A DNA stretch of 64,000 nt from Sulfurovaceae bacterium (GTDB lineage: Bacteria > Campylobacterota > Campylobacteria > Campylobacterales > Sulfurovaceae): positions 1,117,019-1,181,018 of the forward strand of contig OY781042.1 of assembly GCA_963676245.1 (NCBI GenBank). Direction: 5' to 3'. The notes beneath the pieces are model-generated. The model saw nothing but the letters and a program-made list of their open reading frames with translations. It made no database searches and was not told where the DNA came from. Within the stretch, counting starts at the first letter, position 1. Every line of letters starts with the position of its first letter. Shown one piece after another: positions 38,501-59,082 of this stretch. Both the position numbers and the translations under genes were made by a program.

Positions 38501-38852
38501 CATCATTTACATCTATTGTAGATGCCGGAGTATCACTATCGCTTCCGGTGTTGCCTGAAGTTGATACACCTGAGACTGTATATGTAGGGAGATCCTCACC
38601 TGCGTTGACGAGATCGGCACCTGCTTGTGTAAGTGTCACTTCACCTGTAACCGGATCGATCGCATAGTTGGTTGTATCATCGATACTATATGTAATCGTT
38701 CCGCCATCAACATCACTTCCTGTTGTTGTTCCTACGACATCACCTGCAGCTACTGTATCCTCTGTCGGAGTAATCGTTGCTACAGTATCTATGCTCAAGC
38801 CATCATCGACATCTTGTAGGGAGATCCTCACCTGCGTTGACGAGATCGGCAC
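35502..38852 (-). CDS. Giant adhesin, C-terminal part: one consensus repeat, three NDAP-type cadherin/VCBS-like modules, two putative beta-sandwich binding modules, and a T1SS C-terminal secretion domain
   Basis: The 1116-aa ORF begins with 13 out-of-frame residues (MPISSTQVRISLQ). It then has the consensus repeat, followed by DVNDAPVASD / INDAPVASD / VNDAPTSTD modules. The C-terminus GGDGTDALVF...NIEVLDLTN...LGADDVLDITG...LKILGDSDDTVHLDGW...ITYNVY...VQADVGHVVL matches the VCA0849-type T1SS target domain as I remember it. Confidence 0.8.
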   Translation of the reverse strand: MPISSTQVRISLQDVDDGLSIDTVATITPTEDTVAAGDVVGTTTGSDVDGGTITYSIDDTTNYAIDPVTGEVTLTQAGADLVNAGEDLPTYTVSGVSTSGNTGSDSDTPASTIDVNDAPVASDYYVLITEDVPYTSQTSLLAYDTDEDGDTLSIVPGTYTTAQGGTIIVNSNGSYQYTPPANFNGDDTFEFTVTDGALSDTGTLNIHVAPINDAPVASDTSIVANEDVIYSGTLPVYSDVEGDSATYSVETNPSNGTVVINPDGTYTYTPSADYNGTDSFTYTVDDGNGGTNTYTVSVDVTAVNDAPTSTDDSITILEDMNNTTEVYTLSINDFGTYSDAEGDNLVFVRIDSLPTNGTLYLDGTAVPAGTVIEVVDITSGLLTFDPTDNSDADSSFTFSAHDGTDWSTTSYTTTVNITAVADAPIITIGEPDFTPNTFNANFEGSNGLSGWTTSGTVVVESNSLTNSNLGALTSIEGTQHVLLRAEGVANADIATALGVTAANLSAATTNNNATDGSYIQTQVYAKAGDVITVQYNFINAETQNFATGAYDDVAVAVVNGVITKLSDSSDIADDGLNYDNNNDIETTGWQTFTYVATADGYINLGFAIINAGDDTIDSYMMVDNVLINGQDPRLATFDLNLNVDLVDTDGSEYLTVIISDFPTGTTFSQGSLDVASGDWIITLAPGESLADIQATLPTGYDGGFNYNVTAITTDSNGDTATSVAYFADERYLAHAPTLTMDIDSGTYIADITYADNFDTNLDGWTGTDITRDNNAIRIDGGHNDTATKTFDFGVEYAGKSVTISFDTEISNWNDIGDDNMIVSVNGTQYLNLYRDDLDTNRGTMNSGSIHQEFTATVGSDGKVVVVIQNSSSLHSEDLWIDNFSITLPLDIYKYDIALDASLTDGSETLSDITLTNLPTGVTLQDSDGNAITQNGDGSYTVAVDGNGDAVVSIISPNPLTSTDTDAITSSVTSIDESGDMATTTICGSLDDSVTLYNINDSVDGGDGTDALVFGTDMILDFITLNSADNFSNIEVLDLTNAGVTLNNLGADDVLDITGNSSTTLKILGDSDDTVHLDGWATSGQTNQDGITYNVYTDTSGTSTQIWVQADVGHVVL

Positions 38853-39131
38853 CTGCTTGTGTAAGTGTCACTTCACCTGTAACCGGATCGATCGCATAGT
38901 TGGTTGTATCATCGATACTATATGTAATCGTTCCGCCATCAACATCACTTCCTGTTGTTGTTCCTACGACATCACCTGCAGCTACTGTATCCTCTGTCGG
39001 AGTAATCGTTGCTACAGTATCTATGCTCAAGCCATCATCGACATCTATTGTAGATGCCGGAGTATCACTATCGCTTCCGGTGTTGCCTGAAGTTGATACA
39101 CCTGAGACAGTATCTATGCTCAAGCCATCAT
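38511..39131 (-). repeat. Minus-sense copies of the 300-bp adhesin repeat (one full copy plus two rearranged copies)
   Basis: These are the reverse complement of the array consensus. They contain a 68-nt deletion at about 38814/38815 and a 207-nt deletion at 39108/39109. Confidence 0.85.
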
Positions 39132-39884
39132 TAGATACTGTAGCAACGATTACTCCGACAGAGGATACAGTAGCTGCAGGTGATGTCGTAGGAACAACAA
39201 CAGGAAGTGATGTTGATGGCGGAACGATTACATATAGTATCGATGATACAACCAACTATGCGATCGATCCGGTTACAGGTGAAGTGACACTTACACAAGC
39301 AGGTGCCGATCTCGTCAACGCAGGTGAGGATCTCCCTACATATACAGTCTCAGGTGTATCAACTTCAGGCAACACCGGAAGCGATAGTGATACTCCGGCA
39401 TCTACAATAGATGTCGATGATGGCTTGAGCATAGATACTGTAGCAACGATTACTCCGACAGAGGATACAGTAGCTGCAGGTGATGTCGTAGGAACAACAA
39501 CAGGAAGTGATGTTGATGGCGGAACGATTACATATAGTATCGATGATACAACCAACTATGCGATCGATCCGGTTACAGGTGAAGTGACACTTACACAAGC
39601 AGGTGCCGATCTCGTCAACGCAGGTGAGGATCTCCCTACATATACAGTCTCAGGTGTATCAACTTCAGGCAACACCGGAAGCGATAGTGATACTCCGGCA
39701 TCTACAATAGATGTCGATGATGGCTTGAGCATAGATACTGTAGCAACGATTACTCCGACAGAGGATACAGTAAGCTGCAGGTGATGTCGTAGGAACAACA
39801 ACAGGAAGTGATGTTGATGGCGGAACGATTACATATAGTATCGATGATACAACCAACTATGCGATCGATCCGGTTACAGGTGAA

Positions 39885-41210
39885 GTGACACTTACACAAG
39901 CAGGTGCCGATCTCGTCAACGCAGGTGAGGATCTCCCTACATATACAGTCTCAGGTGTATCAACTTCAGGCAACACCGGAAGCGATAGTGATACTCCGGC
40001 ATCTACAATAGATGTCGATGATGGCTTGAGCATAGATACTGTAGCAACGATTACTCCGACAGAGGATACAGTAGCTGCAGGTGATGTCGTAGGAACAACA
40101 ACAGGAAGTGATGTTGATGGCGGAACGATTACATATAGTATCGATGATACAACCAACTATGCGATCGATCCGGTTACAGGTGAAGTGACACTTACACAAG
40201 CAGGTGCCGATCTCGTCAACGCAGGTGAGGATCTCCCTACATATACAGTCTCAGGTGTATCAACTTCAGGCAACACCGGAAGCGATAGTGATACTCCGGC
40301 ATCTACAATAGATGTCGATGATGGCTTGAGCATAGATACTGTAGCAACGATTACTCCGACAGAGGATACAGTAGCTGCAGGTGATGTCGTAGGAACAACA
40401 ACAGGAAGTGATGTTGATGGCGGAACGATTACATATAGTATCGATGATACAACCAACTATGCGATCGATCCGGTTACAGGTGAAGTGACACTTACACAAG
40501 CAGGTGCCGATCTCGTCAACGCAGGTGAGGATCTCCCTACATATACAGTCTCAGGTGTATCAACTTCAGGCAACACCGGAAGCGATAGTGATACTCCGGC
40601 ATCTACAATAGATGTCGATGATGGCTTGAGCATAGATACTGTAGCAACGATTACTCCGACAGAGGATACAGTAGCTGCAGGTGATGTCGTAGGAACAACA
40701 ACAGGAAGTGATGTTGATGGCGGAACGATTACATATAGTATCGATGATACAACCAACTATGCGATCGATCCGGTTACAGGTGAAGTGACACTTACACAAG
40801 CAGGTGCCGATCTCGTCAACGCAGGTGAGGATCTCCCTACATATACAGTCTCAGGTGTATCAACTTCAGGCAACACCGGAAGCGATAGTGATACTCCGGC
40901 ATCTACAATAGATGTCGATGATGGCTTGAGCATAGATACTGTAGCAACGATTACTCCGACAGAGGATACAGTAGCTGCAGGTGATGTCGTAGGAACAACA
41001 ACAGGAAGTGATGTTGATGGCGGAACGATTACATATAGTATCGATGATACAACCAACTATGCGATCGATCCGGTTACAGGTGAAGTGACACTTACACAAG
41101 CAGTGCCGATCTCGTCAACGCAGGTGAGGATCTCCCTACATATACAGTCTCAGGTGTATCAACTTCAGGCAACACCGGAAGCGATAGTGATACTCCGGCA
41201 TCTACAATAG
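39885..41210 (+). CDS. Repeat-only ORF fragment of the adhesin array (sense frame)
   Basis: 441 codons of consensus repeat, bounded by 1-nt indels at about 39772 and about 41103. Confidence 0.45.
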   Translation: MTLTQAGADLVNAGEDLPTYTVSGVSTSGNTGSDSDTPASTIDVDDGLSIDTVATITPTEDTVAAGDVVGTTTGSDVDGGTITYSIDDTTNYAIDPVTGEVTLTQAGADLVNAGEDLPTYTVSGVSTSGNTGSDSDTPASTIDVDDGLSIDTVATITPTEDTVAAGDVVGTTTGSDVDGGTITYSIDDTTNYAIDPVTGEVTLTQAGADLVNAGEDLPTYTVSGVSTSGNTGSDSDTPASTIDVDDGLSIDTVATITPTEDTVAAGDVVGTTTGSDVDGGTITYSIDDTTNYAIDPVTGEVTLTQAGADLVNAGEDLPTYTVSGVSTSGNTGSDSDTPASTIDVDDGLSIDTVATITPTEDTVAAGDVVGTTTGSDVDGGTITYSIDDTTNYAIDPVTGEVTLTQAVPISSTQVRISLHIQSQVYQLQATPEAIVILRHLQ

Positions 41211-41224
41211 ATGTCGATGATGGC

Positions 41225-42421
41225 TTGAGCATAGATACTGTAGCAACGATTACTCCGACAGAGGATACAGTAGCTGCAGGTGATGTCGTAGGAACAACAA
41301 CAGGAAGTGATGTTGATGGCGGAACGATTACATATAGTATCGATGATACAACCAACTATGCGATCGATCCGGTTACAGGTGAAGTGACACTTACACAAGC
41401 AGGTGCCGATCTCGTCAACGCAGGTGAGGATCTCCCTACATATACAGTCTCAGGTGTATCAACTTCAGGCAACACCGGAAGCGATAGTGATACTCCGGCA
41501 TCTACAATAGATGTCGATGATGGCTTGAGCATAGATACTGTAGCAACGATTACTCCGACAGAGGATACAGTAGCTGCAGGTGATGTCGTAGGAACAACAA
41601 CAGGAAGTGATGTTGATGGCGGAACGATTACATATAGTATCGATGATACAACCAACTATGCGATCGATCCGGTTACAGGTGAAGTGACACTTACACAAGC
41701 AGGTGCCGATCTCGTCAACGCAGGTGAGGATCTCCCTACATATACAGTCTCAGGTGTATCAACTTCAGGCAACACCGGAAGCGATAGTGATACTCCGGCA
41801 TCTACAATAGATGTCGATGATGGCTTGAGCATAGATACTGTAGCAACGATTACTCCGACAGAGGATACAGTAGCTGCAGGTGATGTCGTAGGAACAACAA
41901 CAGGAAGTGATGTTGATGGCGGAACGATTACATATAGTATCGATGATACAACCAACTATGCGATCGATCCGGTTACAGGTGAAGTGACACTTACACAAGC
42001 AGGTGCCGATCTCGTCAACGCAGGTGAGGATCTCCCTACATATACAGTCTCAGGTGTATCAACTTCAGGCAACACCGGAAGCGATAGTGATACTCCGGCA
42101 TCTACAATAGATGTCGATGATGGCTTGAGCATAGATACTGTAGCAACGATTACTCCGACAGAGGATACAGTAGCTGCAGGTGATGTCGTAGGAACAACAA
42201 CAGGAAGTGATGTTGATGGCGGAACGATTACATATAGTATCGATGATACAACCAACTATGCGATCGATCCGGTTACAGGTGAAGTGACACTTACACAAGC
42301 AGGTGCCGATCTCGTCAACGCAGGTGAGGATCTCCCTACATATACAGTCTCAGGTGTATCAACTTCAGGCAACACCGGAAGCGATAGTGATACTCCGGCA
42401 TCTACAATAGATGTCCGATGA
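41225..42421 (+). CDS. Repeat-only ORF fragment of the adhesin array (sense frame)
   Basis: 398 codons of consensus repeat, ended by a 1-nt insertion at about 42416. Confidence 0.45.
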   Translation: MSIDTVATITPTEDTVAAGDVVGTTTGSDVDGGTITYSIDDTTNYAIDPVTGEVTLTQAGADLVNAGEDLPTYTVSGVSTSGNTGSDSDTPASTIDVDDGLSIDTVATITPTEDTVAAGDVVGTTTGSDVDGGTITYSIDDTTNYAIDPVTGEVTLTQAGADLVNAGEDLPTYTVSGVSTSGNTGSDSDTPASTIDVDDGLSIDTVATITPTEDTVAAGDVVGTTTGSDVDGGTITYSIDDTTNYAIDPVTGEVTLTQAGADLVNAGEDLPTYTVSGVSTSGNTGSDSDTPASTIDVDDGLSIDTVATITPTEDTVAAGDVVGTTTGSDVDGGTITYSIDDTTNYAIDPVTGEVTLTQAGADLVNAGEDLPTYTVSGVSTSGNTGSDSDTPASTIDVR

Positions 42422-43321
42422 TGGCTTGAGCATAGATACTGTAGCAACGATTACTCCGACAGAGGATACAGTAGCTGCAGGTGATGTCGTAGGAACAACA
42501 ACAGGAAGTGATGTTGATGGCGGAACGATTACATATAGTATCGATGATACAACCAACTATGCGATCGATCCGGTTACAGGTGAAGTGACACTTACACAAG
42601 CAGGTGCCGATCTCGTCAACGCAGGTGAGGATCTCCCTACATATACAGTCTCAGGTGTATCAACTTCAGGCAACACCGGAAGCGATAGTGATACTCCGGC
42701 ATCTACAATAGATGTCGATGATGGCTTGAGCATAGATACTGTAGCAACGATACTCCGACAGAGGATACAGTAGCTGCAGGTGATGTCGTAGGAACAACAA
42801 CAGGAAGTGATGTTGATGGCGGAACGATTACATATAGTATCGATGATACAACCAACTATGCGATCGATCGGTTACAGGTGAAGTGACACTTACACAAGCA
42901 GGTGCCGATCTCGTCAACGCAGGTGAGGATCTCCCTACATATACAGTCTCAGGTGTATCAACTTCAGGCAACACGGAAGCGATAGTGATACTCCGGCATC
43001 TACAATAGATGTCGATGATGGCTTGAGCATAGATACTGTAGCAACGATTACTCCGACAGAGGATACAGTAGCTGCAGGTGATGTCGTAGGAACAACAACA
43101 GGAAGTGATGTTGATGGCGGAACGATTACATATAGTATCGATGATACAACCAACTATGCGATCGATCCGGTTACAGGTGAAGTGACACTTACACAAGCAG
43201 GTGCCGATCTCGTCAACGCAGGTGAGGATCTCCTACATATACAGTCTCAGGTGTATCAACTTCAGGCAACACCGGAAGCGATAGTGATACTCCGGCATCT
43301 ACAATAGATGTCGATGATGGC

Positions 43322-46300
43322 TTGAGCATAGATACTGTAGCAACGATTACTCCGACAGAGGATACAGTAGCTGCAGGTGATGTCGTAGGAACAACAACAG
43401 GAAGTGATGTTGATGGCGGAACGATTACATATAGTATCGATGATACAACCAACTATGCGATCGATCCGGTTACAGGTGAAGTGACACTTACACAAGCAGG
43501 TGCCGATCTCGTCAACGCAGGTGAGGATCTCCCTACATATACAGTCTCAGGTGTATCAACTTCAGGCAACACCGGAAGCGATAGTGATACTCCGGCATCT
43601 ACAATAGATGTCGATGATGGCTTGAGCATAGATACTGTAGCAACGATTACTCCGACAGAGGATACAGTAGCTGCAGGTGATGTCGTAGGAACAACAACAG
43701 GAAGTGATGTTGATGGCGGAACGATTACATATAGTATCGATGATACAACCAACTATGCGATCGATCCGGTTACAGGTGAAGTGACACTTACACAAGCAGG
43801 TGCCGATCTCGTCAACGCAGGTGAGGATCTCCCTACATATACAGTCTCAGGTGTATCAACTTCAGGCAACACCGGAAGCGATAGTGATACTCCGGCATCT
43901 ACAATAGATGTCGATGATGGCTTGAGCATAGATACTGTAGCAACGATTACTCCGACAGAGGATACAGTAGCTGCAGGTGATGTCGTAGGAACAACAACAG
44001 GAAGTGATGTTGATGGCGGAACGATTACATATAGTATCGATGATACAACCAACTATGCGATCGATCCGGTTACAGGTGAAGTGACACTTACACAAGCAGG
44101 TGCCGATCTCGTCAACGCAGGTGAGGATCTCCCTACATATACAGTCTCAGGTGTATCAACTTCAGGCAACACCGGAAGCGATAGTGATACTCCGGCATCT
44201 ACAATAGATGTCGATGATGGCTTGAGCATAGATACTGTAGCAACGATTACTCCGACAGAGGATACAGTAGCTGCAGGTGATGTCGTAGGAACAACAACAG
44301 GAAGTGATGTTGATGGCGGAACGATTACATATAGTATCGATGATACAACCAACTATGCGATCGATCCGGTTACAGGTGAAGTGACACTTACACAAGCAGG
44401 TGCCGATCTCGTCAACGCAGGTGAGGATCTCCCTACATATACAGTCTCAGGTGTATCAACTTCAGGCAACACCGGAAGCGATAGTGATACTCCGGCATCT
44501 ACAATAGATGTCGATGATGGCTTGAGCATAGATACTGTAGCAACGATTACTCCGACAGAGGATACAGTAGCTGCAGGTGATGTCGTAGGAACAACAACAG
44601 GAAGTGATGTTGATGGCGGAACGATTACATATAGTATCGATGATACAACCAACTATGCGATCGATCCGGTTACAGGTGAAGTGACACTTACACAAGCAGG
44701 TGCCGATCTCGTCAACGCAGGTGAGGATCTCCCTACATATACAGTCTCAGGTGTATCAACTTCAGGCAACACCGGAAGCGATAGTGATACTCCGGCATCT
44801 ACAATAGATGTCGATGATGGCTTGAGCATAGATACTGTAGCAACGATTACTCCGACAGAGGATACAGTAGCTGCAGGTGATGTCGTAGGAACAACAACAG
44901 GAAGTGATGTTGATGGCGGAACGATTACATATAGTATCGATGATACAACCAACTATGCGATCGATCCGGTTACAGGTGAAGTGACACTTACACAAGCAGG
45001 TGCCGATCTCGTCAACGCAGGTGAGGATCTCCCTACATATACAGTCTCAGGTGTATCAACTTCAGGCAACACCGGAAGCGATAGTGATACTCCGGCATCT
45101 ACAATAGATGTCGATGATGGCTTGAGCATAGATACTGTAGCAACGATTACTCCGACAGAGGATACAGTAGCTGCAGGTGATGTCGTAGGAACAACAACAG
45201 GAAGTGATGTTGATGGCGGAACGATTACATATAGTATCGATGATACAACCAACTATGCGATCGATCCGGTTACAGGTGAAGTGACACTTACACAAGCAGG
45301 TGCCGATCTCGTCAACGCAGGTGAGGATCTCCCTACATATACAGTCTCAGGTGTATCAACTTCAGGCAACACCGGAAGCGATAGTGATACTCCGGCATCT
45401 ACAATAGATGTCGATGATGGCTTGAGCATAGATACTGTAGCAACGATTACTCCGACAGAGGATACAGTAGCTGCAGGTGATGTCGTAGGAACAACAACAG
45501 GAAGTGATGTTGATGGCGGAACGATTACATATAGTATCGATGATACAACCAACTATGCGATCGATCCGGTTACAGGTGAAGTGACACTTACACAAGCAGG
45601 TGCCGATCTCGTCAACGCAGGTGAGGATCTCCCTACATATACAGTCTCAGGTGTATCAACTTCAGGCAACACCGGAAGCGATAGTGATACTCCGGCATCT
45701 ACAATAGATGTCGATGATGGCTTGAGCATAGATACTGTAGCAACGATTACTCCGACAGAGGATACAGTAGCTGCAGGTGATGTCGTAGGAACAACAACAG
45801 GAAGTGATGTTGATGGCGGAACGATTACATATAGTATCGATGATACAACCAACTATGCGATCGATCCGGTTACAGGTGAAGTGACACTTACACAAGCAGG
45901 TGCCGATCTCGTCAACGCAGGTGAGGATCTCCCTACATATACAGTCTCAGGTGTATCAACTTCAGGCAACACCGGAAGCGATAGTGATACTCCGGCATCT
46001 ACAATAGATGTCGATGATGGCTTGAGCATAGATACTGTAGCAACGATTACTCCGACAGAGGATACAGTAGCTGCAGGTGATGTCGTAGGAACAACAACAG
46101 GAAGTGATGTTGATGGCGGAACGATTACATATAGTATCGATGATACAACCAACTATGCGATCGATCCGGTTACAGGTGAAGTGACACTTACACAAGCAGG
46201 TGCCGATCTCGTCAACGCAGGTGAGGATCTCCCTACATATACAGTCTCAGGTGTATCAACTTCAGGCAACACCGGAAGCGATAGTGATACTCCGGCATCT

Positions 46301-49300
46301 ACAATAGATGTCGATGATGGCTTGAGCATAGATACTGTAGCAACGATTACTCCGACAGAGGATACAGTAGCTGCAGGTGATGTCGTAGGAACAACAACAG
46401 GAAGTGATGTTGATGGCGGAACGATTACATATAGTATCGATGATACAACCAACTATGCGATCGATCCGGTTACAGGTGAAGTGACACTTACACAAGCAGG
46501 TGCCGATCTCGTCAACGCAGGTGAGGATCTCCCTACATATACAGTCTCAGGTGTATCAACTTCAGGCAACACCGGAAGCGATAGTGATACTCCGGCATCT
46601 ACAATAGATGTCGATGATGGCTTGAGCATAGATACTGTAGCAACGATTACTCCGACAGAGGATACAGTAGCTGCAGGTGATGTCGTAGGAACAACAACAG
46701 GAAGTGATGTTGATGGCGGAACGATTACATATAGTATCGATGATACAACCAACTATGCGATCGATCCGGTTACAGGTGAAGTGACACTTACACAAGCAGG
46801 TGCCGATCTCGTCAACGCAGGTGAGGATCTCCCTACATATACAGTCTCAGGTGTATCAACTTCAGGCAACACCGGAAGCGATAGTGATACTCCGGCATCT
46901 ACAATAGATGTCGATGATGGCTTGAGCATAGATACTGTAGCAACGATTACTCCGACAGAGGATACAGTAGCTGCAGGTGATGTCGTAGGAACAACAACAG
47001 GAAGTGATGTTGATGGCGGAACGATTACATATAGTATCGATGATACAACCAACTATGCGATCGATCCGGTTACAGGTGAAGTGACACTTACACAAGCAGG
47101 TGCCGATCTCGTCAACGCAGGTGAGGATCTCCCTACATATACAGTCTCAGGTGTATCAACTTCAGGCAACACCGGAAGCGATAGTGATACTCCGGCATCT
47201 ACAATAGATGTCGATGATGGCTTGAGCATAGATACTGTAGCAACGATTACTCCGACAGAGGATACAGTAGCTGCAGGTGATGTCGTAGGAACAACAACAG
47301 GAAGTGATGTTGATGGCGGAACGATTACATATAGTATCGATGATACAACCAACTATGCGATCGATCCGGTTACAGGTGAAGTGACACTTACACAAGCAGG
47401 TGCCGATCTCGTCAACGCAGGTGAGGATCTCCCTACATATACAGTCTCAGGTGTATCAACTTCAGGCAACACCGGAAGCGATAGTGATACTCCGGCATCT
47501 ACAATAGATGTCGATGATGGCTTGAGCATAGATACTGTAGCAACGATTACTCCGACAGAGGATACAGTAGCTGCAGGTGATGTCGTAGGAACAACAACAG
47601 GAAGTGATGTTGATGGCGGAACGATTACATATAGTATCGATGATACAACCAACTATGCGATCGATCCGGTTACAGGTGAAGTGACACTTACACAAGCAGG
47701 TGCCGATCTCGTCAACGCAGGTGAGGATCTCCCTACATATACAGTCTCAGGTGTATCAACTTCAGGCAACACCGGAAGCGATAGTGATACTCCGGCATCT
47801 ACAATAGATGTCGATGATGGCTTGAGCATAGATACTGTAGCAACGATTACTCCGACAGAGGATACAGTAGCTGCAGGTGATGTCGTAGGAACAACAACAG
47901 GAAGTGATGTTGATGGCGGAACGATTACATATAGTATCGATGATACAACCAACTATGCGATCGATCCGGTTACAGGTGAAGTGACACTTACACAAGCAGG
48001 TGCCGATCTCGTCAACGCAGGTGAGGATCTCCCTACATATACAGTCTCAGGTGTATCAACTTCAGGCAACACCGGAAGCGATAGTGATACTCCGGCATCT
48101 ACAATAGATGTCGATGATGGCTTGAGCATAGATACTGTAGCAACGATTACTCCGACAGAGGATACAGTAGCTGCAGGTGATGTCGTAGGAACAACAACAG
48201 GAAGTGATGTTGATGGCGGAACGATTACATATAGTATCGATGATACAACCAACTATGCGATCGATCCGGTTACAGGTGAAGTGACACTTACACAAGCAGG
48301 TGCCGATCTCGTCAACGCAGGTGAGGATCTCCCTACATATACAGTCTCAGGTGTATCAACTTCAGGCAACACCGGAAGCGATAGTGATACTCCGGCATCT
48401 ACAATAGATGTCGATGATGGCTTGAGCATAGATACTGTAGCAACGATTACTCCGACAGAGGATACAGTAGCTGCAGGTGATGTCGTAGGAACAACAACAG
48501 GAAGTGATGTTGATGGCGGAACGATTACATATAGTATCGATGATACAACCAACTATGCGATCGATCCGGTTACAGGTGAAGTGACACTTACACAAGCAGG
48601 TGCCGATCTCGTCAACGCAGGTGAGGATCTCCCTACATATACAGTCTCAGGTGTATCAACTTCAGGCAACACCGGAAGCGATAGTGATACTCCGGCATCT
48701 ACAATAGATGTCGATGATGGCTTGAGCATAGATACTGTAGCAACGATTACTCCGACAGAGGATACAGTAGCTGCAGGTGATGTCGTAGGAACAACAACAG
48801 GAAGTGATGTTGATGGCGGAACGATTACATATAGTATCGATGATACAACCAACTATGCGATCGATCCGGTTACAGGTGAAGTGACACTTACACAAGCAGG
48901 TGCCGATCTCGTCAACGCAGGTGAGGATCTCCCTACATATACAGTCTCAGGTGTATCAACTTCAGGCAACACCGGAAGCGATAGTGATACTCCGGCATCT
49001 ACAATAGATGTCGATGATGGCTTGAGCATAGATACTGTAGCAACGATTACTCCGACAGAGGATACAGTAGCTGCAGGTGATGTCGTAGGAACAACAACAG
49101 GAAGTGATGTTGATGGCGGAACGATTACATATAGTATCGATGATACAACCAACTATGCGATCGATCCGGTTACAGGTGAAGTGACACTTACACAAGCAGG
49201 TGCCGATCTCGTCAACGCAGGTGAGGATCTCCCTACATATACAGTCTCAGGTGTATCAACTTCAGGCAACACCGGAAGCGATAGTGATACTCCGGCATCT

Positions 49301-50080
49301 ACAATAGATGTCGATGATGGCTTGAGCATAGATACTGTAGCAACGATTACTCCGACAGAGGATACAGTAGCTGCAGGTGATGTCGTAGGAACAACAACAG
49401 GAAGTGATGTTGATGGCGGAACGATTACATATAGTATCGATGATACAACCAACTATGCGATCGATCCGGTTACAGGTGAAGTGACACTTACACAAGCAGG
49501 TGCCGATCTCGTCAACGCAGGTGAGGATCTCCCTACATATACAGTCTCAGGTGTATCAACTTCAGGCAACACCGGAAGCGATAGTGATACTCCGGCATCT
49601 ACAATAGATGTCGATGATGGCTTGAGCATAGATACTGTAGCAACGATTACTCCGACAGAGGATACAGTAGCTGCAGGTGATGTCGTAGGAACAACAACAG
49701 GAAGTGATGTTGATGGCGGAACGATTACATATAGTATCGATGATACAACCAACTATGCGATCGATCCGGTTACAGGTGAAGTGACACTTACACAAGCAGG
49801 TGCCGATCTCGTCAACGCAGGTGAGGATCTCCCTACATATACAGTCTCAGGTGTATCAACTTCAGGCAACACCGGAAGCGATAGTGATACTCCGGCATCT
49901 ACAATAGATGTCGATGATGGCTTGAGCATAGATACTGTAGCAACGATTACTCCGACAGAGGATACAGTAGCTGCAGGTGATGTCGTAGGAACAACAACAG
50001 GAAGTGATGTTGATGGCGGAACGATTACATATAGTATCGATGATACAACCCAACTATGCGATCGATCCGGTTACAGGTGA
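43322..50080 (+). CDS. Repeat-only ORF fragment of the adhesin array (sense frame), longest uninterrupted run
   Basis: 2252 codons, equal to 22.5 identical repeats. It has no signal peptide, no unique N- or C-terminal sequence and no evident RBS, so it is not a stand-alone gene. Confidence 0.5.
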   Translation: MSIDTVATITPTEDTVAAGDVVGTTTGSDVDGGTITYSIDDTTNYAIDPVTGEVTLTQAGADLVNAGEDLPTYTVSGVSTSGNTGSDSDTPASTIDVDDGLSIDTVATITPTEDTVAAGDVVGTTTGSDVDGGTITYSIDDTTNYAIDPVTGEVTLTQAGADLVNAGEDLPTYTVSGVSTSGNTGSDSDTPASTIDVDDGLSIDTVATITPTEDTVAAGDVVGTTTGSDVDGGTITYSIDDTTNYAIDPVTGEVTLTQAGADLVNAGEDLPTYTVSGVSTSGNTGSDSDTPASTIDVDDGLSIDTVATITPTEDTVAAGDVVGTTTGSDVDGGTITYSIDDTTNYAIDPVTGEVTLTQAGADLVNAGEDLPTYTVSGVSTSGNTGSDSDTPASTIDVDDGLSIDTVATITPTEDTVAAGDVVGTTTGSDVDGGTITYSIDDTTNYAIDPVTGEVTLTQAGADLVNAGEDLPTYTVSGVSTSGNTGSDSDTPASTIDVDDGLSIDTVATITPTEDTVAAGDVVGTTTGSDVDGGTITYSIDDTTNYAIDPVTGEVTLTQAGADLVNAGEDLPTYTVSGVSTSGNTGSDSDTPASTIDVDDGLSIDTVATITPTEDTVAAGDVVGTTTGSDVDGGTITYSIDDTTNYAIDPVTGEVTLTQAGADLVNAGEDLPTYTVSGVSTSGNTGSDSDTPASTIDVDDGLSIDTVATITPTEDTVAAGDVVGTTTGSDVDGGTITYSIDDTTNYAIDPVTGEVTLTQAGADLVNAGEDLPTYTVSGVSTSGNTGSDSDTPASTIDVDDGLSIDTVATITPTEDTVAAGDVVGTTTGSDVDGGTITYSIDDTTNYAIDPVTGEVTLTQAGADLVNAGEDLPTYTVSGVSTSGNTGSDSDTPASTIDVDDGLSIDTVATITPTEDTVAAGDVVGTTTGSDVDGGTITYSIDDTTNYAIDPVTGEVTLTQAGADLVNAGEDLPTYTVSGVSTSGNTGSDSDTPASTIDVDDGLSIDTVATITPTEDTVAAGDVVGTTTGSDVDGGTITYSIDDTTNYAIDPVTGEVTLTQAGADLVNAGEDLPTYTVSGVSTSGNTGSDSDTPASTIDVDDGLSIDTVATITPTEDTVAAGDVVGTTTGSDVDGGTITYSIDDTTNYAIDPVTGEVTLTQAGADLVNAGEDLPTYTVSGVSTSGNTGSDSDTPASTIDVDDGLSIDTVATITPTEDTVAAGDVVGTTTGSDVDGGTITYSIDDTTNYAIDPVTGEVTLTQAGADLVNAGEDLPTYTVSGVSTSGNTGSDSDTPASTIDVDDGLSIDTVATITPTEDTVAAGDVVGTTTGSDVDGGTITYSIDDTTNYAIDPVTGEVTLTQAGADLVNAGEDLPTYTVSGVSTSGNTGSDSDTPASTIDVDDGLSIDTVATITPTEDTVAAGDVVGTTTGSDVDGGTITYSIDDTTNYAIDPVTGEVTLTQAGADLVNAGEDLPTYTVSGVSTSGNTGSDSDTPASTIDVDDGLSIDTVATITPTEDTVAAGDVVGTTTGSDVDGGTITYSIDDTTNYAIDPVTGEVTLTQAGADLVNAGEDLPTYTVSGVSTSGNTGSDSDTPASTIDVDDGLSIDTVATITPTEDTVAAGDVVGTTTGSDVDGGTITYSIDDTTNYAIDPVTGEVTLTQAGADLVNAGEDLPTYTVSGVSTSGNTGSDSDTPASTIDVDDGLSIDTVATITPTEDTVAAGDVVGTTTGSDVDGGTITYSIDDTTNYAIDPVTGEVTLTQAGADLVNAGEDLPTYTVSGVSTSGNTGSDSDTPASTIDVDDGLSIDTVATITPTEDTVAAGDVVGTTTGSDVDGGTITYSIDDTTNYAIDPVTGEVTLTQAGADLVNAGEDLPTYTVSGVSTSGNTGSDSDTPASTIDVDDGLSIDTVATITPTEDTVAAGDVVGTTTGSDVDGGTITYSIDDTTNYAIDPVTGEVTLTQAGADLVNAGEDLPTYTVSGVSTSGNTGSDSDTPASTIDVDDGLSIDTVATITPTEDTVAAGDVVGTTTGSDVDGGTITYSIDDTTNYAIDPVTGEVTLTQAGADLVNAGEDLPTYTVSGVSTSGNTGSDSDTPASTIDVDDGLSIDTVATITPTEDTVAAGDVVGTTTGSDVDGGTITYSIDDTTNYAIDPVTGEVTLTQAGADLVNAGEDLPTYTVSGVSTSGNTGSDSDTPASTIDVDDGLSIDTVATITPTEDTVAAGDVVGTTTGSDVDGGTITYSIDDTTQLCDRSGYR

Positions 50081-50221
50081 AGTGACACTTACACAAGCAG
50101 GTGCCGATCTCGTCAACGCAGGTGAGGATCTCCCTACATATACAGTCTCAGGTGTATCACTTCAGGCAACACCGGAAGCGATAGTGATACTCCGGCATCT
50201 ACAATAGATGTCGATGATGGC

Positions 50222-51169
50222 TTGAGCATAGATACTGTAGCAACGATTACTCCGACAGAGGATACAGTAGCTGCAGGTGATGTCGTAGGAACAACAACAG
50301 GAAGTGATGTTGATGGCGGAACGATTACATATAGTATCGATGATACAACCAACTATGCGATCGATCCGGTTACAGGTGAAGTGACACTTACACAAGCAGG
50401 TGCCGATCTCGTCAACGCAGGTGAGGATCTCCCTACATATACAGTCTCAGGTGTATCAACTTCAGGCAACACCGGAAGCGATAGTGATACTCCGGCATCT
50501 ACAATAGATGTCGATGATGGCTTGAGCATAGATACTGTAGCAACGATTACTCCGACAGAGGATACAGTAGCTGCAGGTGATGTCGTAGGAACAACAACAG
50601 GAAGTGATGTTGATGGCGGAACGATTACATATAGTATCGATGATACAACCAACTATGCGATCGATCCGGTTACAGGTGAAGTGACACTTACACAAGCAGG
50701 TGCCGATCTCGTCAACGCAGGTGAGGATCTCCCTACATATACAGTCTCAGGTGTATCAACTTCAGGCAACACCGGAAGCGATAGTGATACTCCGGCATCT
50801 ACAATAGATGTCGATGATGGCTTGAGCATAGATACTGTAGCAACGATTACTCCGACAGAGGATACAGTAGCTGCAGGTGATGTCGTAGGAACAACAACAG
50901 GAAGTGATGTTGATGGCGGAACGATTACATATAGTATCGATGATACAACCAACTATGCGATCGATCCGGTTACAGGTGAAGTGACACTTACACAAGCAGG
51001 TGCCGATCTCGTCAACGCAGGTGAGGATCTCCCTACATATACAGTCTCAGGTGTATCAACTTCAGGCAACACCGGAAGCGATAGTGATACTCCGGCATCT
51101 ACAATAGATGTCGATGATGGCTTGAGCATAGATACTGTAGCACGATTACTCCGACAGAGGATACAGTAG
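50222..51169 (+). CDS. Repeat-only ORF fragment of the adhesin array (sense frame)
   Basis: 315 codons, bounded by indels at about 50160 and about 51142. Confidence 0.45.
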   Translation: MSIDTVATITPTEDTVAAGDVVGTTTGSDVDGGTITYSIDDTTNYAIDPVTGEVTLTQAGADLVNAGEDLPTYTVSGVSTSGNTGSDSDTPASTIDVDDGLSIDTVATITPTEDTVAAGDVVGTTTGSDVDGGTITYSIDDTTNYAIDPVTGEVTLTQAGADLVNAGEDLPTYTVSGVSTSGNTGSDSDTPASTIDVDDGLSIDTVATITPTEDTVAAGDVVGTTTGSDVDGGTITYSIDDTTNYAIDPVTGEVTLTQAGADLVNAGEDLPTYTVSGVSTSGNTGSDSDTPASTIDVDDGLSIDTVARLLRQRIQ

Positions 51170-51596
51170 CATGCAGGTGATGTCGTAGGAACAACAACAG
51201 GAAGTGATGTTGATGGCGGAACGATTACATATAGTATCGATGATACAAACCAACTATGCGATCGATCGGTTACAGGTGAAGTGACACTTACACAAGCAGG
51301 TGCCGATCTCGTCAACGCAGGTGAGGATCTCCCTACATATACAGTCTCAGGTGTATCAACTCAGGCAACACCGGAAGCGATAGTGATACTCCGGCATCTA
51401 CAATAGATGTCGATGATGGCTTGAGCATAGATACTGTAGCAACGATTACTCGACAGAGGATACAGTAGCTGCAGGTGATGTCGTAGGAACAACAACAGGA
51501 AGTGATGTTGATGCGGAACGATTACATATAGTATCGATGATACAACCAACTATGCGATCGATCCGGTTACAGGTGAAGTGACACTTACACAAGCAG

Positions 51597-53195
51597 GTGC
51601 CGATCTCGTCAACGCAGGTGAGGATCTCCCTACATATACCAGTCTCAGGTGTATCAACTTCAGGCAACACCGGAAGCGATAGTGATACTCCGGCATCTAC
51701 AATAGATGTCGATGATGGCTTGAGCATAGATACTGTAGCAACGATTACTCCGACAGAGGATACAGTAGCTGCAGGTGATGTCGTAGGAACAACAACAGGA
51801 AGTGATGTTGATGGCGGAACGATTACATATAGTATCGATGATACAACCAACTATGCGATCGATCCGGTTACAGGTGAAGTGACACTTACACAAGCAGGTG
51901 CCGATCTCGTCAACGCAGGTGAGGATCTCCCTACATATACAGTCTCAGGTGTATCAACTTCAGGCAACACCGGAAGCGATAGTGATACTCCGGCATCTAC
52001 AATAGATGTCGATGATGGCTTGAGCATAGATACTGTAGCAACGATTACTCCGACAGAGGATACAGTAGCTGCAGGTGATGTCGTAGGAACAACAACAGGA
52101 AGTGATGTTGATGGCGGAACGATTACATATAGTATCGATGATACAACCAACTATGCGATCGATCCGGTTACAGGTGAAGTGACACTTACACAAGCAGGTG
52201 CCGATCTCGTCAACGCAGGTGAGGATCTCCCTACATATACAGTCTCAGGTGTATCAACTTCAGGCAACACCGGAAGCGATAGTGATACTCCGGCATCTAC
52301 AATAGATGTCGATGATGGCTTGAGCATAGATACTGTAGCAACGATTACTCCGACAGAGGATACAGTAGCTGCAGGTGATGTCGTAGGAACAACAACAGGA
52401 AGTGATGTTGATGGCGGAACGATTACATATAGTATCGATGATACAACCAACTATGCGATCGATCCGGTTACAGGTGAAGTGACACTTACACAAGCAGGTG
52501 CCGATCTCGTCAACGCAGGTGAGGATCTCCCTACATATACAGTCTCAGGTGTATCAACTTCAGGCAACACCGGAAGCGATAGTGATACTCCGGCATCTAC
52601 AATAGATGTCGATGATGGCTTGAGCATAGATACTGTAGCAACGATTACTCCGACAGAGGATACAGTAGCTGCAGGTGATGTCGTAGGAACAACAACAGGA
52701 AGTGATGTTGATGGCGGAACGATTACATATAGTATCGATGATACAACCAACTATGCGATCGATCCGGTTACAGGTGAAGTGACACTTACACAAGCAGGTG
52801 CCGATCTCGTCAACGCAGGTGAGGATCTCCCTACATATACAGTCTCAGGTGTATCAACTTCAGGCAACACCGGAAGCGATAGTGATACTCCGGCATCTAC
52901 AATAGATGTCGATGATGGCTTGAGCATAGATACTGTAGCAACGATTACTCCGACAGAGGATACAGTAGCTGCAGGTGATGTCGTAGGAACAACAACAGGA
53001 AGTGATGTTGATGGCGGAACGATTACATATAGTATCGATGATACAACCAACTATGCGATCGATCCGGTTACAGGTGAAGTGACACTTACACAAGCAGGTG
53101 CCGATGAGTATCACTATCGCTTCCGGTTGCACCAAAAGGGTCGGTTGCTGTTACTTCTACAGGAGGTAGATCACCTCCGCTGTTCACCAAATTAG
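51597..53195 (+). CDS. Repeat-only ORF fragment of the adhesin array, running through the right strand-switch junction
   Basis: 532 codons. The first ~12 residues are out of frame. The last ~30 (EYHYRFRLHQKG...) are antisense to the minus-strand N-terminal part. Confidence 0.4.
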   Translation: MPISSTQVRISLHIPVSGVSTSGNTGSDSDTPASTIDVDDGLSIDTVATITPTEDTVAAGDVVGTTTGSDVDGGTITYSIDDTTNYAIDPVTGEVTLTQAGADLVNAGEDLPTYTVSGVSTSGNTGSDSDTPASTIDVDDGLSIDTVATITPTEDTVAAGDVVGTTTGSDVDGGTITYSIDDTTNYAIDPVTGEVTLTQAGADLVNAGEDLPTYTVSGVSTSGNTGSDSDTPASTIDVDDGLSIDTVATITPTEDTVAAGDVVGTTTGSDVDGGTITYSIDDTTNYAIDPVTGEVTLTQAGADLVNAGEDLPTYTVSGVSTSGNTGSDSDTPASTIDVDDGLSIDTVATITPTEDTVAAGDVVGTTTGSDVDGGTITYSIDDTTNYAIDPVTGEVTLTQAGADLVNAGEDLPTYTVSGVSTSGNTGSDSDTPASTIDVDDGLSIDTVATITPTEDTVAAGDVVGTTTGSDVDGGTITYSIDDTTNYAIDPVTGEVTLTQAGADEYHYRFRLHQKGRLLLLLQEVDHLRCSPN

Positions 53196-53895
53196 CACCT
53201 GCTTGTGTAAGTGTTACCTCTCCTGTTGCAGAATCAATTGCATAAACACCGCCTGGGTTTGTTGTAAGAGAGTATGTGAGGGTATCTCCATCTTCATCGC
53301 TTCCGACACTTGTTGCTACTTGATCACCTTCGCTTACTGTACCTTCAGTCGGGCTGAGCGTAACTGTTACTTCTACTTCAGGAGCAGTATTAGTTTCAAC
53401 AGCAGAGGCTTGGCCGCCACCGCCACCGCCACCGCCACCTGCACCGGCAAGGGCTCCCGCTCCAAGTACGCCAAGCAGAATCGGAAGGAAACCACCGTCT
53501 GATTCTGTATTAAGAACTTGATAAGATGATAGACCATCATTTAGATTTTCCGCAAGCATTGTTGAATCAAGTTCTTGAGGGCTATAAGCATAAAGATTTC
53601 CATCTTCGGCTACACCAAATATTTGTCCCTCATCATTTTCGTAATAATCTTTGACAATGACGGTAGAGTCGTCATCTTCGCTCTCAGTCTCATTGAGAAT
53701 TTTAATTTCAAGATCATCACCTTTTCTTGTGACTTTAATCATATCAGGCGCTAAATTTTTAGTTAAATCTTTAACCTCATAGCTTGAATTAGGCTGTGCT
53801 TGAACAATAAGTGGCGAACCCCCGCCATCGGGGATATTTATCTCGGATCTTGTCCCATCACTGTTGTTGATGATGTTTAATATATTTTTACTCAT
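53086..53895 (-). CDS. Giant adhesin, N-terminal part (BapA/LapA-type prefix or retention region, Gly-rich hydrophobic segment, first divergent repeat)
   Basis: The ATG at 53895 lies 8 nt after AAGGA. The protein reads MSKNILNIINNSDGTRSEINIP...VTRKGDDLEIKIL...VIVKDYYEN, then LPILLGVLGAGALAGAG(G)9, then a repeat roughly 55-60% identical by eye to the array unit, ending GATGSDSDT at 53106. The last 6 codons (HRHLLV) are antisense array sequence. Confidence 0.8.
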   Translation of the reverse strand: MSKNILNIINNSDGTRSEINIPDGGGSPLIVQAQPNSSYEVKDLTKNLAPDMIKVTRKGDDLEIKILNETESEDDDSTVIVKDYYENDEGQIFGVAEDGNLYAYSPQELDSTMLAENLNDGLSSYQVLNTESDGGFLPILLGVLGAGALAGAGGGGGGGGGQASAVETNTAPEVEVTVTLSPTEGTVSEGDQVATSVGSDEDGDTLTYSLTTNPGGVYAIDSATGEVTLTQAGANLVNSGGDLPPVEVTATDPFGATGSDSDTHRHLLV

Positions 53896-57684: not shown

Positions 57685-59082
57685 ATGTCATTTAGGATAG
57701 AGAAAGATACAATGGGCGAGGTGAAAGTACCTGATAGTAAATATTGGGGGGCACAAACGCAAAGATCGTTACAAAATTTTGAGATTGGTAATGAAAAGAT
57801 GCCCCTAGAAGTAGTCTATGGATTTGCAGATCTAAAAAAAGCATGCGCGCTCGTCAACCATGGGTTAGGAAGACTTGATGAATCAAAATGTAACGCTATA
57901 TCTCAAGCTTGCGAGGAGATACTTGCAGGCAAACATGATAGCGAGTTTCCTCTCGTAGTTTGGCAGACAGGTTCGGGCACGCAATCAAATATGAATATCA
58001 ATGAAGTTGTTGCAAATAGAGCAACAGAGATACTCGGCGATAATTTTAGAGAAACAAAAAGTGTGCATCCTAATGATGATGTCAATAAAGGGCAAAGCTC
58101 AAATGATACTTATCCAACAGCAATGCGTATAGCTGAGGTCGTTGCTGTGAGCGAAGATCTTATCCCTGCTATCAATCAATTGCGAGCAACTTTAGGAGCA
58201 AAATCAAAAGAGTTTGATGATGTTATCAAAATAGGTAGAACACACTTGCAAGATGCAACACCTTTAAGCCTAGGACAGGAGTTGAGCGGTTATGTTGCTA
58301 TGTTGGATGCCAATAAAAGACAGATAGAGGATGCACTTGGTTATTGCAAAGAACTAGCCATAGGTGGAACGGCTGTTGGAACAGGGCTTAATTCGCATCC
58401 TGATTTTTCTAATCTTGTTTCAAAAACTCTCAATGCGTCTATGAAAAAAGATTATGGATTTATCTCGCAACCAAATAAGTTTCATGCTCTTACGGGGCAT
58501 GATGCTGAAGTGATGCTTTCTGCATCACTTAAAGGGCTTGCGGCAAATCTTATGAAGATAGCCAACGATATCAGATGGCTTGCCTCCGGACCACGATGTG
58601 GTATAGGCGAGATAACTATTCCTGAAAATGAGCCGGGTAGCTCTATCATGCCGGGCAAAGTAAACCCTACGCAGTCAGAAGCACTTACGATGGTAGCAGT
58701 ACAAGTAATGGGCAATGACACAACAGTTGGCATAGCAGCAAGTCAAGGTAATTTCGAACTCAATGTATTTAAGCCGGTTATCGCTTATAATATTTTACAG
58801 TCGATAAAGTTACTCGCTGATTCTATGAGAAGTTTTGATAAAAATTGCGCTGTTGGTATCGAGCCGATTAGAGAGAATATTGATGCTTATTTGCGTAACT
58901 CTTTGATGCTTGTGACTGCACTCAATCCTCATATAGGATATGAAAATGCAGCAAAGATAGCCAAAAGTGCACATAAAAACGGAACAACATTAAAGCAAGA
59001 GGCTATCAAATCCGGGCTTTTAAGTGAAAAAGAGTTCGATGCGTATGTAAAACCGAAAGATATGATAGCGCCGAAAGTGTAA
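57685..59082 (+). CDS. fumC: Class II fumarate hydratase
   Basis: 465 aa with the [13 protein letters not shown] signature and the N-terminus [14 protein letters not shown]. Confidence 0.94.

What the first reader, a model, noticed from the sequence alone, without database searches (positions are those of the whole stretch)
38800..53130. The 14-kb repeat array of the giant adhesin gene lies on the opposite strand from both ends of the gene
The N-terminal part (53895 down to 53106) and the C-terminal part (39131 down to 35502) are coded on the minus strand. Each breaks off inside the same 300-bp repeat. The ~46.6 copies between them (39132..53105) have their sense frame on the plus strand.

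The left switch is a fold-back: acagtatcta (39107-39116), then 15 nt, then tagatactgt (39132-39141). The right switch is abrupt at 53105|53106 (...caagcaggtgccgat|gagtatcactatcgcttccggt...).

As assembled, the gene is cut into three pieces. These are a 269-codon N-terminal stub, plus-strand repeat-only ORFs, and a 1116-codon C-terminal ORF without a proper start.

A direct tandem array offers no long inverted repeats for homologous inversion. No recombinase or IS element is in the window. Three explanations remain:
- (i) A fold-back or chimeric-read misassembly.
- (ii) A real illegitimate inversion that inactivated the adhesin.
- (iii) A programmed ON/OFF inversion, which has the least support.

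I re-inverted 39132..53105 by hand. One joint comes out in frame (...GSDSDT-L-DTVATITP...) and the other is off by a single nt. Which joint is which depends on where T39132 is assigned. The result is therefore nearly one continuous ~6,100-codon ORF, but with non-equivalent repeat phases at the two joints.

Each unit also contains a short intrinsic inverted pair (tactgta ... tacagta, about 30 nt apart). This could seed template switching.
Basis: partly seen in the sequence, partly recalled or inferred. Interest (0 to 1): 0.8.

Follow-up and report, generated by a model that had tools for sequence, protein, structure and literature searches.

The report
Flipped adhesin repeat array, probably misassembled
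The 14-kb block of identical repeats inside a giant surface-adhesin gene really does lie on the opposite strand from the two ends of the gene in this sequence, but the evidence points to a long-read assembly error, not a true or programmed DNA inversion.

Summary
46.6 copies of a 300-bp unit (39132..53105) are coded on the + strand. The N-terminal part (53895..53106) and C-terminal part (39131..35502) of the same giant adhesin gene are coded on the - strand.

I read this as most likely (about 0.7) a long-read misassembly, for five reasons:
- All 17 differences among the copies are 1-nt indels, with no substitutions. Sixteen kb of flanking genes carry no frameshift.
- The layout is not a clean two-break inversion. 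The joint phases disagree, and the left side has two further jumps (68 nt missing, which breaks the frame, and 207 nt missing) within 320 bp of the U-turn.
- Both strand switches are blunt U-turns at nearly the same repeat phase, with loops of 15 and about 93 nt. This is the geometry of fold-back chimeric reads.
- A relative with 93% identical flanks (short-read scaffold) has the same gene as one colinear ORF. Here, N-terminus + sense repeats + C-terminus would also read open.
- A second error-prone long-read contig from another relative shows the same kind of flip: a 226-bp perfect palindrome with an 18-nt loop, 0.78 copy into a different array.

No recombinase or IS element is in the window. 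A real complex inversion (about 0.2) cannot be excluded without the reads.

The parts
53106..53895 (-). N-terminal coding part of the giant adhesin. It holds about 140 aa of unique domain, a hydrophobic segment, a poly-Gly run, and the first, diverged repeat ending in ...GATGSDSDT.
   Evidence: ORF and translation. It is 85% identical over the aligned N-terminal region, including the diverged first repeats, to the N-terminus of the colinear 1538-aa ORF of L082.
53106..53127 (-). The only 22 nt of consensus repeat (unit positions 264 to 243) that are in gene orientation on the N-terminal side.
   Evidence: k-mer mapping to the unit; inverted-repeat pair I2.
53052..53244 (.). Right strand switch (joint 53105|53106). 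The + strand array ends at unit position 179 and the - strand sequence starts at position 264. It forms a fold-back with 50-nt arms (82% complementary) and a 93-nt spacer.
   Evidence: The joint has no microhomology, because the mapped segments abut without overlap.
39132..53105 (+). Array of 46.6 copies of a 300-bp (100-aa) unit with its sense frame on the + strand. 38 units are identical and 8 differ only by 1-nt indels.
39107..39141 (.). Left strand switch: a blunt fold-back with a 10-bp stem (39107-39116 / 39132-39141) and a 15-nt loop.
39107..39131 (-). A 25-nt island of repeat in gene orientation (unit positions 10 to 1, then 300 to 286). It lies between the 207-nt jump and the U-turn.
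38815..39108 (-). Repeat copy in gene orientation (unit positions 209 to 1, then 300 to 216). It is bounded by the 68-nt-deletion joint at 38814|38815 and by the 207-nt-deletion joint at about 39108.
   Evidence: TRF reports the resulting 232-bp pseudo-period at 38583-39046.
38509..38814 (-). Last repeat copy in gene orientation (unit positions 283 to 1, then 300 to 278). It is in frame with the C-terminal part.
35502..38508 (-). C-terminal non-array part of the adhesin: cadherin-like / Big_9 / tandem-95 domains followed by about 700 aa with no family match.
   Evidence: Translation; Pfam; NCBIfam. It is 74% identical to P0008, the L082 homologue.
53414..53439 (-). CCGCCA x 4.3 micro-repeat that encodes the poly-Gly run of the N-terminal part.
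   Evidence: The run length differs among relatives.

Best explanation
The gene is an ordinary giant repeat adhesin of about 6,000 aa or more. It has an N-terminal anchor-like region, at least 49 identical 100-aa repeats, and a cadherin-like/tandem-95 C-terminal part. It sits on the - strand between dnaE and the gene for monomeric isocitrate dehydrogenase, in a Sulfurovum/Sulfurimonas-like bacterium.

In the organism the array is most likely colinear with the gene ends. The flipped array is an artefact of long-read assembly. An array of perfectly identical 300-bp units cannot be placed copy by copy. One fold-back (U-turn) chimeric read of each polarity links the array to its reverse complement. 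The assembler then threaded from the N-terminal flank into the reverse-complement array, and back again just before the C-terminal flank. This left short-cut joints and unpolished indels.

Shown here: the anatomy, the error pattern, the colinear relative and the parallel case. Inferred: the read-level mechanism.
For: 1. Error signature. All 17 differences among 46.6 copies are 1-nt indels, mostly homopolymer contractions, with no substitutions. Thirteen flanking ORFs (5,356 aa, 16 kb) have the same lengths as their orthologues in L082, so none is frameshifted. At the array's rate of 1.2 indels per kb, about 20 would be expected. The array is therefore a poorly supported long-read consensus.

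2. Not a clean inversion. A two-break inversion with left joint (286|1) predicts a right joint (285|300). The observed right joint is (179|264). Two more joints (68 and 207 nt missing) lie within 320 bp of the left U-turn. That makes at least four independent aberrant joints in an array that otherwise carries no mutation.

3. Fold-back geometry. Both strand switches are U-turns at nearly the same repeat phase, with loops of 15 and 93 nt and no microhomology. ONT genomic libraries contain about 0.55-0.6% fold-back reads that turn within 200 bp (PMC12338684).

4. A simple colinear model is open. The N-terminal part continued at unit position 265 reads through in frame. The last gene-oriented copy is in frame with the C-terminal part.

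5. Colinear relative. L082 (GCA_050304895.1, flanks 93% identical) has the same dnaE - DUF2846 - adhesin - IDH synteny. It carries one 1538-aa ORF that enters the same repeat in sense from both ends, with a 98-N scaffold gap in the collapsed array.

6. Parallel case. L001 is a contig from a relative with flanks 81% identical and a different 288-bp unit. Its IDH and aclA genes carry homopolymer frameshifts. It shows the N-terminus, then 0.78 sense copy, then a perfect 226-bp palindrome with an 18-nt loop, then 9.1 antisense copies up to the contig end. In both assemblies the path turns within the first unit after entering the array. A traversal of a collapsed repeat cycle would do exactly that.

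7. No recombinase, integrase or IS element is in the window.
Against: No reads are available, so the mechanism is inferred.

The flanks are correctly oriented, and the array was given a definite length within a single 1.84-Mb contig. If reads longer than 16 kb spanned the array, an assembler should have followed them, and the structure would then be real.

The arms of the fold-backs are asymmetric: 0.07 or 0.78 sense copies against 46.6 or 9.1 antisense copies. A single plain fold-back read cannot explain them. Copy ambiguity in the graph, or unusual chimeras, is needed as well.

Two related organisms show a flip at the same end of the gene. This could also point to a biological hot spot.

The sequencing platform of both assemblies is unknown. 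Fold-back reads are reported as nearly absent from PacBio HiFi data.
Confidence: 0.7

Rival explanations
1. A real, recent, complex illegitimate rearrangement. Replication template switching (the MMBIR/FoSTeS type) or hairpin-mediated repair within the array inverted about 47 copies and left several short-cut joints. This inactivated the adhesin gene in the sequenced strain.
For: The structure sits in a single contig with correctly oriented flanks. Complex joints with short templated islands, such as the 25-nt segment 39107-39131, are typical of multi-step template switching (established knowledge of MMBIR). A second relative shows a flip at the same end of its array. The gene is head-on to the inferred replication direction, given the positive GC skew of the + strand and most genes lying on +. 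That orientation favours fork stalling.
Against: At least four independent blunt joints with 0-2 nt of microhomology would have to arise in an array that has no substitution at all. Indel errors are concentrated in the array. The U-turns would create 209-226-bp perfect inverted repeats with spacers of 18-108 nt. In bacteria studied so far these are unstable (established knowledge of SbcCD-dependent palindrome instability in E. coli; not tested for this lineage). The closest relative is colinear.
Confidence: 0.2
2. A programmed ON/OFF switch: the array is inverted reversibly to silence or express the adhesin.
For: The only support is the recurrence of a flip in two related assemblies. Once one inverted copy exists, homologous recombination between inverted copies could also flip array segments (inference).
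Against: No recombinase, integrase or IS element is in 64 kb. There are no matching inverted-repeat sites at the two borders, and the joints lie at different repeat phases. Re-inversion does not restore the frame at one joint, and the 68-nt jump stays frame-breaking. The joints in the relative L001 lie in an unrelated repeat sequence.
Confidence: 0.03
3. The + strand repeat ORFs are the real genes, and the minus-strand pieces are unrelated small genes. On this reading there was never a single giant gene.
For: A 2252-aa ORF is open on the + strand.
Against: The + strand ORFs consist only of repeats, lack a credible start region and are broken by 1-nt indels. The N- and C-terminal parts contain the same repeat in their own frame. 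The orthologue in L082 is one ORF.
Confidence: 0.01

Closest known systems
Fold-back (template-complement or missed-adapter) chimeric long reads and the misassemblies they seed
   Same: The strand switches back on itself within 200 bp or less of the same position. The joints are blunt. The case occurs in assemblies with residual homopolymer indels. The switches lie inside a repeat that cannot be resolved copy by copy (PMC12338684).
   Different: A plain fold-back read is a symmetric palindrome. Here the arms are very unequal, so the artefact also needs the copy ambiguity of an identical tandem array. Two fold-backs of opposite polarity are needed as well. No read-level evidence is available.
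Giant repeat adhesins of Gram-negative bacteria (LapA/BapA/SiiE/MpIBP-like proteins; NCBI 'tandem-95 repeat protein')
   Same: The inferred size is at least 6,000 aa. There are dozens of identical units of about 100 aa, and cadherin-like/Big_9/tandem-95 domains before the C-terminus. A 75%-identical relative is named a type I secretion C-terminal target domain protein and carries HemolysinCabind.
   Different: The N-terminal part matches no retention-module or other family. It carries a hydrophobic segment plus a poly-Gly run. The 100-aa unit itself matches no Pfam or NCBIfam model. No type I secretion C-terminal domain was detected in this protein, and no dedicated T1SS ABC/MFP genes lie next to it.
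Site-specific invertible DNA switches (fimS, hin/gin, shufflons, 'invertons')
   Same: A DNA segment lies in the opposite orientation to its context, which disrupts or controls a surface-protein gene.
   Different: There is no recombinase gene and no pair of equivalent inverted-repeat sites. The joints lie at different repeat phases, and the reverse inversion would not restore an open gene.
Replication-based complex rearrangements (quasi-palindrome template switching, FoSTeS/MMBIR fold-back inversions)
   Same: Fold-back joints, a short 25-nt island between joints, and several joints clustered together.
   Different: The joints have 0-2 nt of microhomology. The inverted tract is 14 kb of identical repeats, and nothing shows that the structure exists in DNA as opposed to the assembly.

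Membership tests
Long-read fold-back misassembly | The sequence switches to the opposite strand at nearly the same position (a U-turn within about 200 bp). | tested here: met
   In repeat phase the loops are 15 nt (left) and 85-93 nt (right), and 18 nt in L001.
Long-read fold-back misassembly | The assembly comes from error-prone long reads, and the region is poorly supported. | tested here: met
   17 indels and 0 substitutions in 14 kb of array, against 0 frameshifts in 16 kb of flanking ORFs. L001 has homopolymer frameshifts in IDH and aclA. The platform itself is unknown.
Long-read fold-back misassembly | The joints are not supported by the bulk of the raw reads. | not testable with these tools
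   No reads are available. The flanking proteins are not on record in any read-derived assembly.
Long-read fold-back misassembly | Independent assemblies or relatives show the colinear arrangement. | tested here: met
   L082 has flanks 93% identical and a single 1538-aa ORF that enters the repeat in sense from both ends. It is a different species-level lineage, so this shows only the ancestral state.
Simple two-break inversion | The two joints are reciprocal: the repeat phases at one joint predict those at the other. | tested here: not met
   The left joint is 286|1, which predicts a right joint of 285|300. The observed right joint is 179|264. Extra 68- and 207-nt jumps are also present.
Site-specific invertible switch | A recombinase or invertase gene in or next to the element. 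| tested here: not met
   All ORFs of at least 100 aa scanned are housekeeping genes, and no recombinase or transposase domain was found. Synteny with L082 agrees.
Site-specific invertible switch | A pair of equivalent inverted-repeat recombination sites at the two borders. | tested here: not met
   The border sequences differ and lie at different repeat phases.
Giant T1SS repeat adhesin (LapA/BapA-like) | A long array of tandem Ig-/cadherin-like repeats. | tested here: met
   46.6 + 2.3 copies of a 100-aa unit, and Cadherin_4/5, Big_9 and tandem-95 domains in the C-terminal part. The unit itself matches no model.
Giant T1SS repeat adhesin (LapA/BapA-like) | An N-terminal retention module. | tested here: not met
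   No Pfam or NCBIfam family matches the N-terminal 263 aa. Only three close relatives are known.
Giant T1SS repeat adhesin (LapA/BapA-like) | C-terminal RTX repeats, a T1SS signal and a cognate T1SS. | tested here: inconclusive
   This protein gave no HemolysinCabind or T1SS C-terminal-domain hit. The 75%-identical P0010 carries PF00353 and that NCBI name. The window holds TolC-like OEP and HlyD-like genes, but they sit next to an RND pump.

The most novel reading that the evidence does not exclude
The flips are real and recurrent. On this reading, in this clade of Sulfurovum/Sulfurimonas-like bacteria, the identical-repeat arrays of a head-on-oriented giant adhesin gene undergo recombinase-independent fold-back inversion that starts at the N-terminal edge of the array. 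Two lineages with unrelated repeat units show it. This would give an unrecognised way of switching off, and perhaps back on by recombination between inverted copies, a protein of more than 600 kDa.
Probability: 0.12. Interest if true: 0.75.

Novelty: not a real feature. Interest (0 to 1): 0.25.

Why it matters
If the flip is an artefact, as I think, the practical lesson is for genome quality control. A finished-looking single-contig genome can carry a strand-flipped tandem array, which turns one giant adhesin gene into a string of pseudo-ORFs. A sign change in AT/GC skew at array borders, fold-back joints, and indel-only variation among the copies together make a cheap detector. A second long-read contig shows the same pattern, so this may be a recurring failure mode for identical-repeat adhesin genes.

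If the flip were real, it would be an unusual recombinase-free inversion that inactivates a major surface protein, and it would be worth experimental follow-up.

Tried and rejected
- **Exact look-ups of this window's proteins.** I looked up the N-terminal stub, IDH, P0001 and P0007 in the collection of public assemblies, hoping for a short-read (Logan) assembly of the same strain that would show the native joint. None is on record.
- **Cluster look-up for accession numbers.** No accessions or names were returned, so the genome record, platform and assembler could not be identified.
- **Genome-collection scan with IDH.** It gave only relatives at 86% identity or less (Sulfurovum/Sulfurimonas MAGs). 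The window's own genome was not among the loci.
- **Metagenome scan with an alignment of three N-termini.** There was one hit (L084, 89% nt identity), and its contig ends at codon 69. It is uninformative about the array.
- **Search for the C-terminal end of the L001 gene, using its repeat unit.** No further contig from that metagenome turned up. Whether L001's array is also flipped at its other end remains unknown.
- **Microhomology at the joints.** It is 0-2 nt, which does not discriminate between the explanations.
- **Simple inversion and programmed switch.** Both were rejected on joint phases and on the absence of a recombinase.
- **A paper search on the contig length.** The tool rejected the search term.
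Full report
**1. The observation**

Tandem Repeats Finder reports 46.6 copies of a 300-bp unit at 39132..53105, 99% matching. The ORF list shows a 269-aa ORF on the - strand at 53086..53895 and a 1116-aa ORF on the - strand at 35502..38852. Between them lies a chain of + strand ORFs that consist only of repeats. AT skew jumps from about -0.1 to +0.16 and back exactly at the array borders, and GC skew changes sign with it.

The unit translates without stops only in one + strand frame (DTVATITPTEDTVAAGDVVGTTTGSDVDGG...). The N-terminal ORF ends with a diverged copy of this repeat in its own, minus, frame. The C-terminal ORF begins with consensus copies of it, also in the minus frame. The fold-back ACAGTATCTA - 15 nt - TAGATACTGT and the joint ...GGTGCCGAT|GAGTATCAC... 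are present.

**2. Finer anatomy**

I mapped every 14-mer to the unit on both strands. On the left, the gene-oriented repeat sequence is not continuous:
- 38509-38814 covers unit positions 283 to 1 and 300 to 278.
- Then 68 nt are missing.
- 38815-39108 covers positions 209 to 1 and 300 to 216.
- Then 207 nt are missing.
- 39107-39131 is a 25-nt island (positions 10 to 1, then 300 to 286).
- Then the sequence U-turns into the + strand array at unit position 1.

On the right, the + strand array stops at unit position 179. The - strand sequence begins at position 264 and matches the consensus for only 22 nt, then becomes the diverged first repeat. This right joint is also a fold-back. The end of the array pairs with the first repeat of the gene over 50 nt (82% complementary), with a 93-nt spacer.

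There are therefore at least four aberrant joints, and three of them lie within 320 bp. A simple two-break inversion with left joint 286|1 predicts a right joint 285|300. The observed right joint is 179|264, so the arrangement is not a clean inversion. Re-inverting the array would leave 36 nt missing (in frame) at one joint and 106 nt missing (out of frame) at the other. The frame-breaking 68-nt jump would also remain.

**3. Variation among the copies**

Of the 46 full units, 38 are identical. The other eight differ by 17 single-base indels and no substitutions. Most are contractions of two- or three-base homopolymers. That is the signature of residual long-read consensus errors, not of mutation.

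The flanks are clean by comparison. Thirteen ORFs around the gene (5,356 aa, 16 kb) have the same lengths, to within 3 aa, as their orthologues in a related assembly. At the array's rate of 1.2 indels per kb, about 20 frameshifts would be expected there. The array is thus a locally poor consensus inside an otherwise polished assembly.

**4. What the gene is**

The window comes from a Sulfurovum/Sulfurimonas-like member of the Campylobacterota. The best IDH matches are 84-86% identical and come from such MAGs. The genes around the adhesin are housekeeping genes:
- an rRNA operon at 2004-7305;
- pheS and pheT, aroA, ispH, rpsA and serA;
- a TolC/HlyD/RND pump;
- dnaE, DUF2846, monomeric IDH, malate dehydrogenase and 2-oxoacid:ferredoxin oxidoreductase genes;
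- fumarase and two genes of the succinyl-CoA ligase / citrate lyase type at 57685-61331, assigned by synteny with L082.

No recombinase or IS element is present.

The C-terminal part has Cadherin_4, Cadherin_5, Big_9 and tandem-95 domains. A 75%-identical relative is annotated as a type I secretion C-terminal target domain protein. The N-terminal 263 aa and the 100-aa unit match no family.

If the N-terminal part is continued at unit position 265 in sense, it reads straight through. The last gene-oriented copy is in frame with the C-terminal part. A colinear gene of N-terminus + n x 100 aa + C-terminus (about 6,000 aa or more) would therefore be fully open.

**5. Relatives**

The N-terminal stub and the C-terminal ORF of this very assembly are in the protein collection, on a contig of 1,844,818 bp. 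The DNA and its metadata could not be retrieved.

Two relatives are informative.

- **L082** (GCA_050304895.1, contig JBNLEL010000002.1) has flanks 93% identical and the same synteny: IDH - adhesin - DUF2846 - dnaE. It carries a single 1538-aa ORF: the same N-terminus, the same repeat in sense, a 98-N scaffold gap where the array collapsed, the repeat in sense again, and the C-terminal part. Its flanks align to the window's - strand, while its repeats align to the window's + strand. This shows directly that the window's array is flipped relative to the colinear arrangement.
- **L001** (ENA ERZ21878193, contig ctg9706l) has flanks 81% identical and IDH about 95% identical at the protein level. 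It has an N-terminal stub, followed by 0.78 copy of a different 288-bp repeat in sense. Then comes a perfect palindrome (226-nt arms, 100% complementary, 18-nt loop), and then 9.1 identical antisense copies up to the contig end. That contig has homopolymer frameshifts in IDH and in the aclA-like gene, so it too is an error-prone long-read assembly.

**6. Interpretation**

I think the flip is most likely an assembly artefact (about 0.7). The supporting observations are:
- indel-only variation, confined to the array;
- at least four blunt aberrant joints in an array that otherwise has no mutation;
- joints that are not reciprocal;
- U-turns at nearly the same repeat phase (loops of 15, 18 and 93 nt). 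For the two tight ones, a random opposite-strand join would give this with a probability of about 0.01 (my calculation from unit lengths of 300 and 288);
- a path that turns within the first unit after entering the array in both assemblies, as expected when a collapsed repeat cycle is linked to its reverse-complement twin by a fold-back read;
- a colinear orthologue in the closest relative.

Fold-back reads that turn within 200 bp make up about 0.55-0.6% of ONT genomic reads (Heinz, Meyerson and Li, PMC12338684). For an array covered by a few hundred reads, one or a few such reads of each polarity are expected.

From memory, not tested: contig names of the form 'ctgNNNNl' are those of metaMDBG, a minimizer-space de Bruijn graph assembler. 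Such a graph would collapse the array into a cycle.

**7. What speaks against this, and the rivals**

I have no reads, and the platform is unknown. If reads longer than 16 kb spanned the array, the assembler should have followed them. The fold-back arms are very unequal, so a single plain fold-back read does not suffice. Two related organisms flipping at the same end of the gene could also indicate a biological hot spot. The gene is head-on to the inferred replication direction.

- **A real complex rearrangement of the template-switching type** therefore keeps about 0.2. The multiplicity of blunt joints, the absence of any substitution, and the 209-226-bp perfect inverted repeats with short spacers that it would create all count against it.
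- **A programmed switch** is very unlikely (about 0.03). There is no recombinase and there are no equivalent border sites. The reverse inversion would not restore an open gene.

**8. Verdict**

The feature as such is probably not real. The underlying gene is an ordinary, if very large, repeat adhesin whose N-terminal region has no known family. The decisive test is read-level support for the four joints, or orientation-specific PCR.

Noticed in passing
L001:10506-10975 (ENA ERZ21878193, contig ctg9706l): A related long-read metagenome contig has the homologous adhesin N-terminus. It is followed by a perfect 226-bp palindrome with an 18-nt loop, and then by 9.1 antisense copies of an unrelated 288-bp repeat up to the contig end. 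This is the same kind of flip as in the window.
   Followed up: partly
window 38814|38815 and about 39107-39108: Two further aberrant joints lie in the gene-oriented repeat copies: 68 nt missing (frame-breaking) and 207 nt missing. They produce the 232-bp pseudo-period that TRF reports at 38583-39046.
   Followed up: yes
window 53400-53530 (- strand): The adhesin N-terminal region contains a hydrophobic segment (FLPILLGVLGAGALAGA) followed by a run of 9 Gly encoded by a CCGCCA x 4.3 micro-repeat. The run length differs among the three relatives (9, 7, and 6 plus S). The N-terminal 263 aa match no Pfam or NCBIfam family, including retention-module models.
   Followed up: partly
window 26024-27622 and 27623-29317 (+ strand): An RND (ACR_tran) transporter is encoded as two abutting ORFs of 532 and 564 aa. 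The same split, with the same lengths, occurs in the independent assembly L082. It is therefore probably genuine and not a frameshift error.
   Followed up: no
window 2004-7305 (+ strand): A complete rRNA operon (16S, a tRNA at 3752-3824, 23S, 5S) lies about 30 kb from the adhesin gene. The short ORFs listed inside it (for example 6464-6922) are spurious.
   Followed up: no
window 39732-43330 and 49929-51730: The 17 indel errors of the array cluster in two zones (units 3-14 and 37-42). Units 15-36 and the units next to both joints are error-free. The cause is unknown; it may reflect uneven read support or uneven polishing.
   Followed up: no
L084 (JACDJA010001740.1), locus 10001-10207: A metagenome contig from another relative (89% nt identity over 10 kb of flank) ends 207 nt into the adhesin gene, well before the array. 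The reason for the contig break there is not clear.
   Followed up: no
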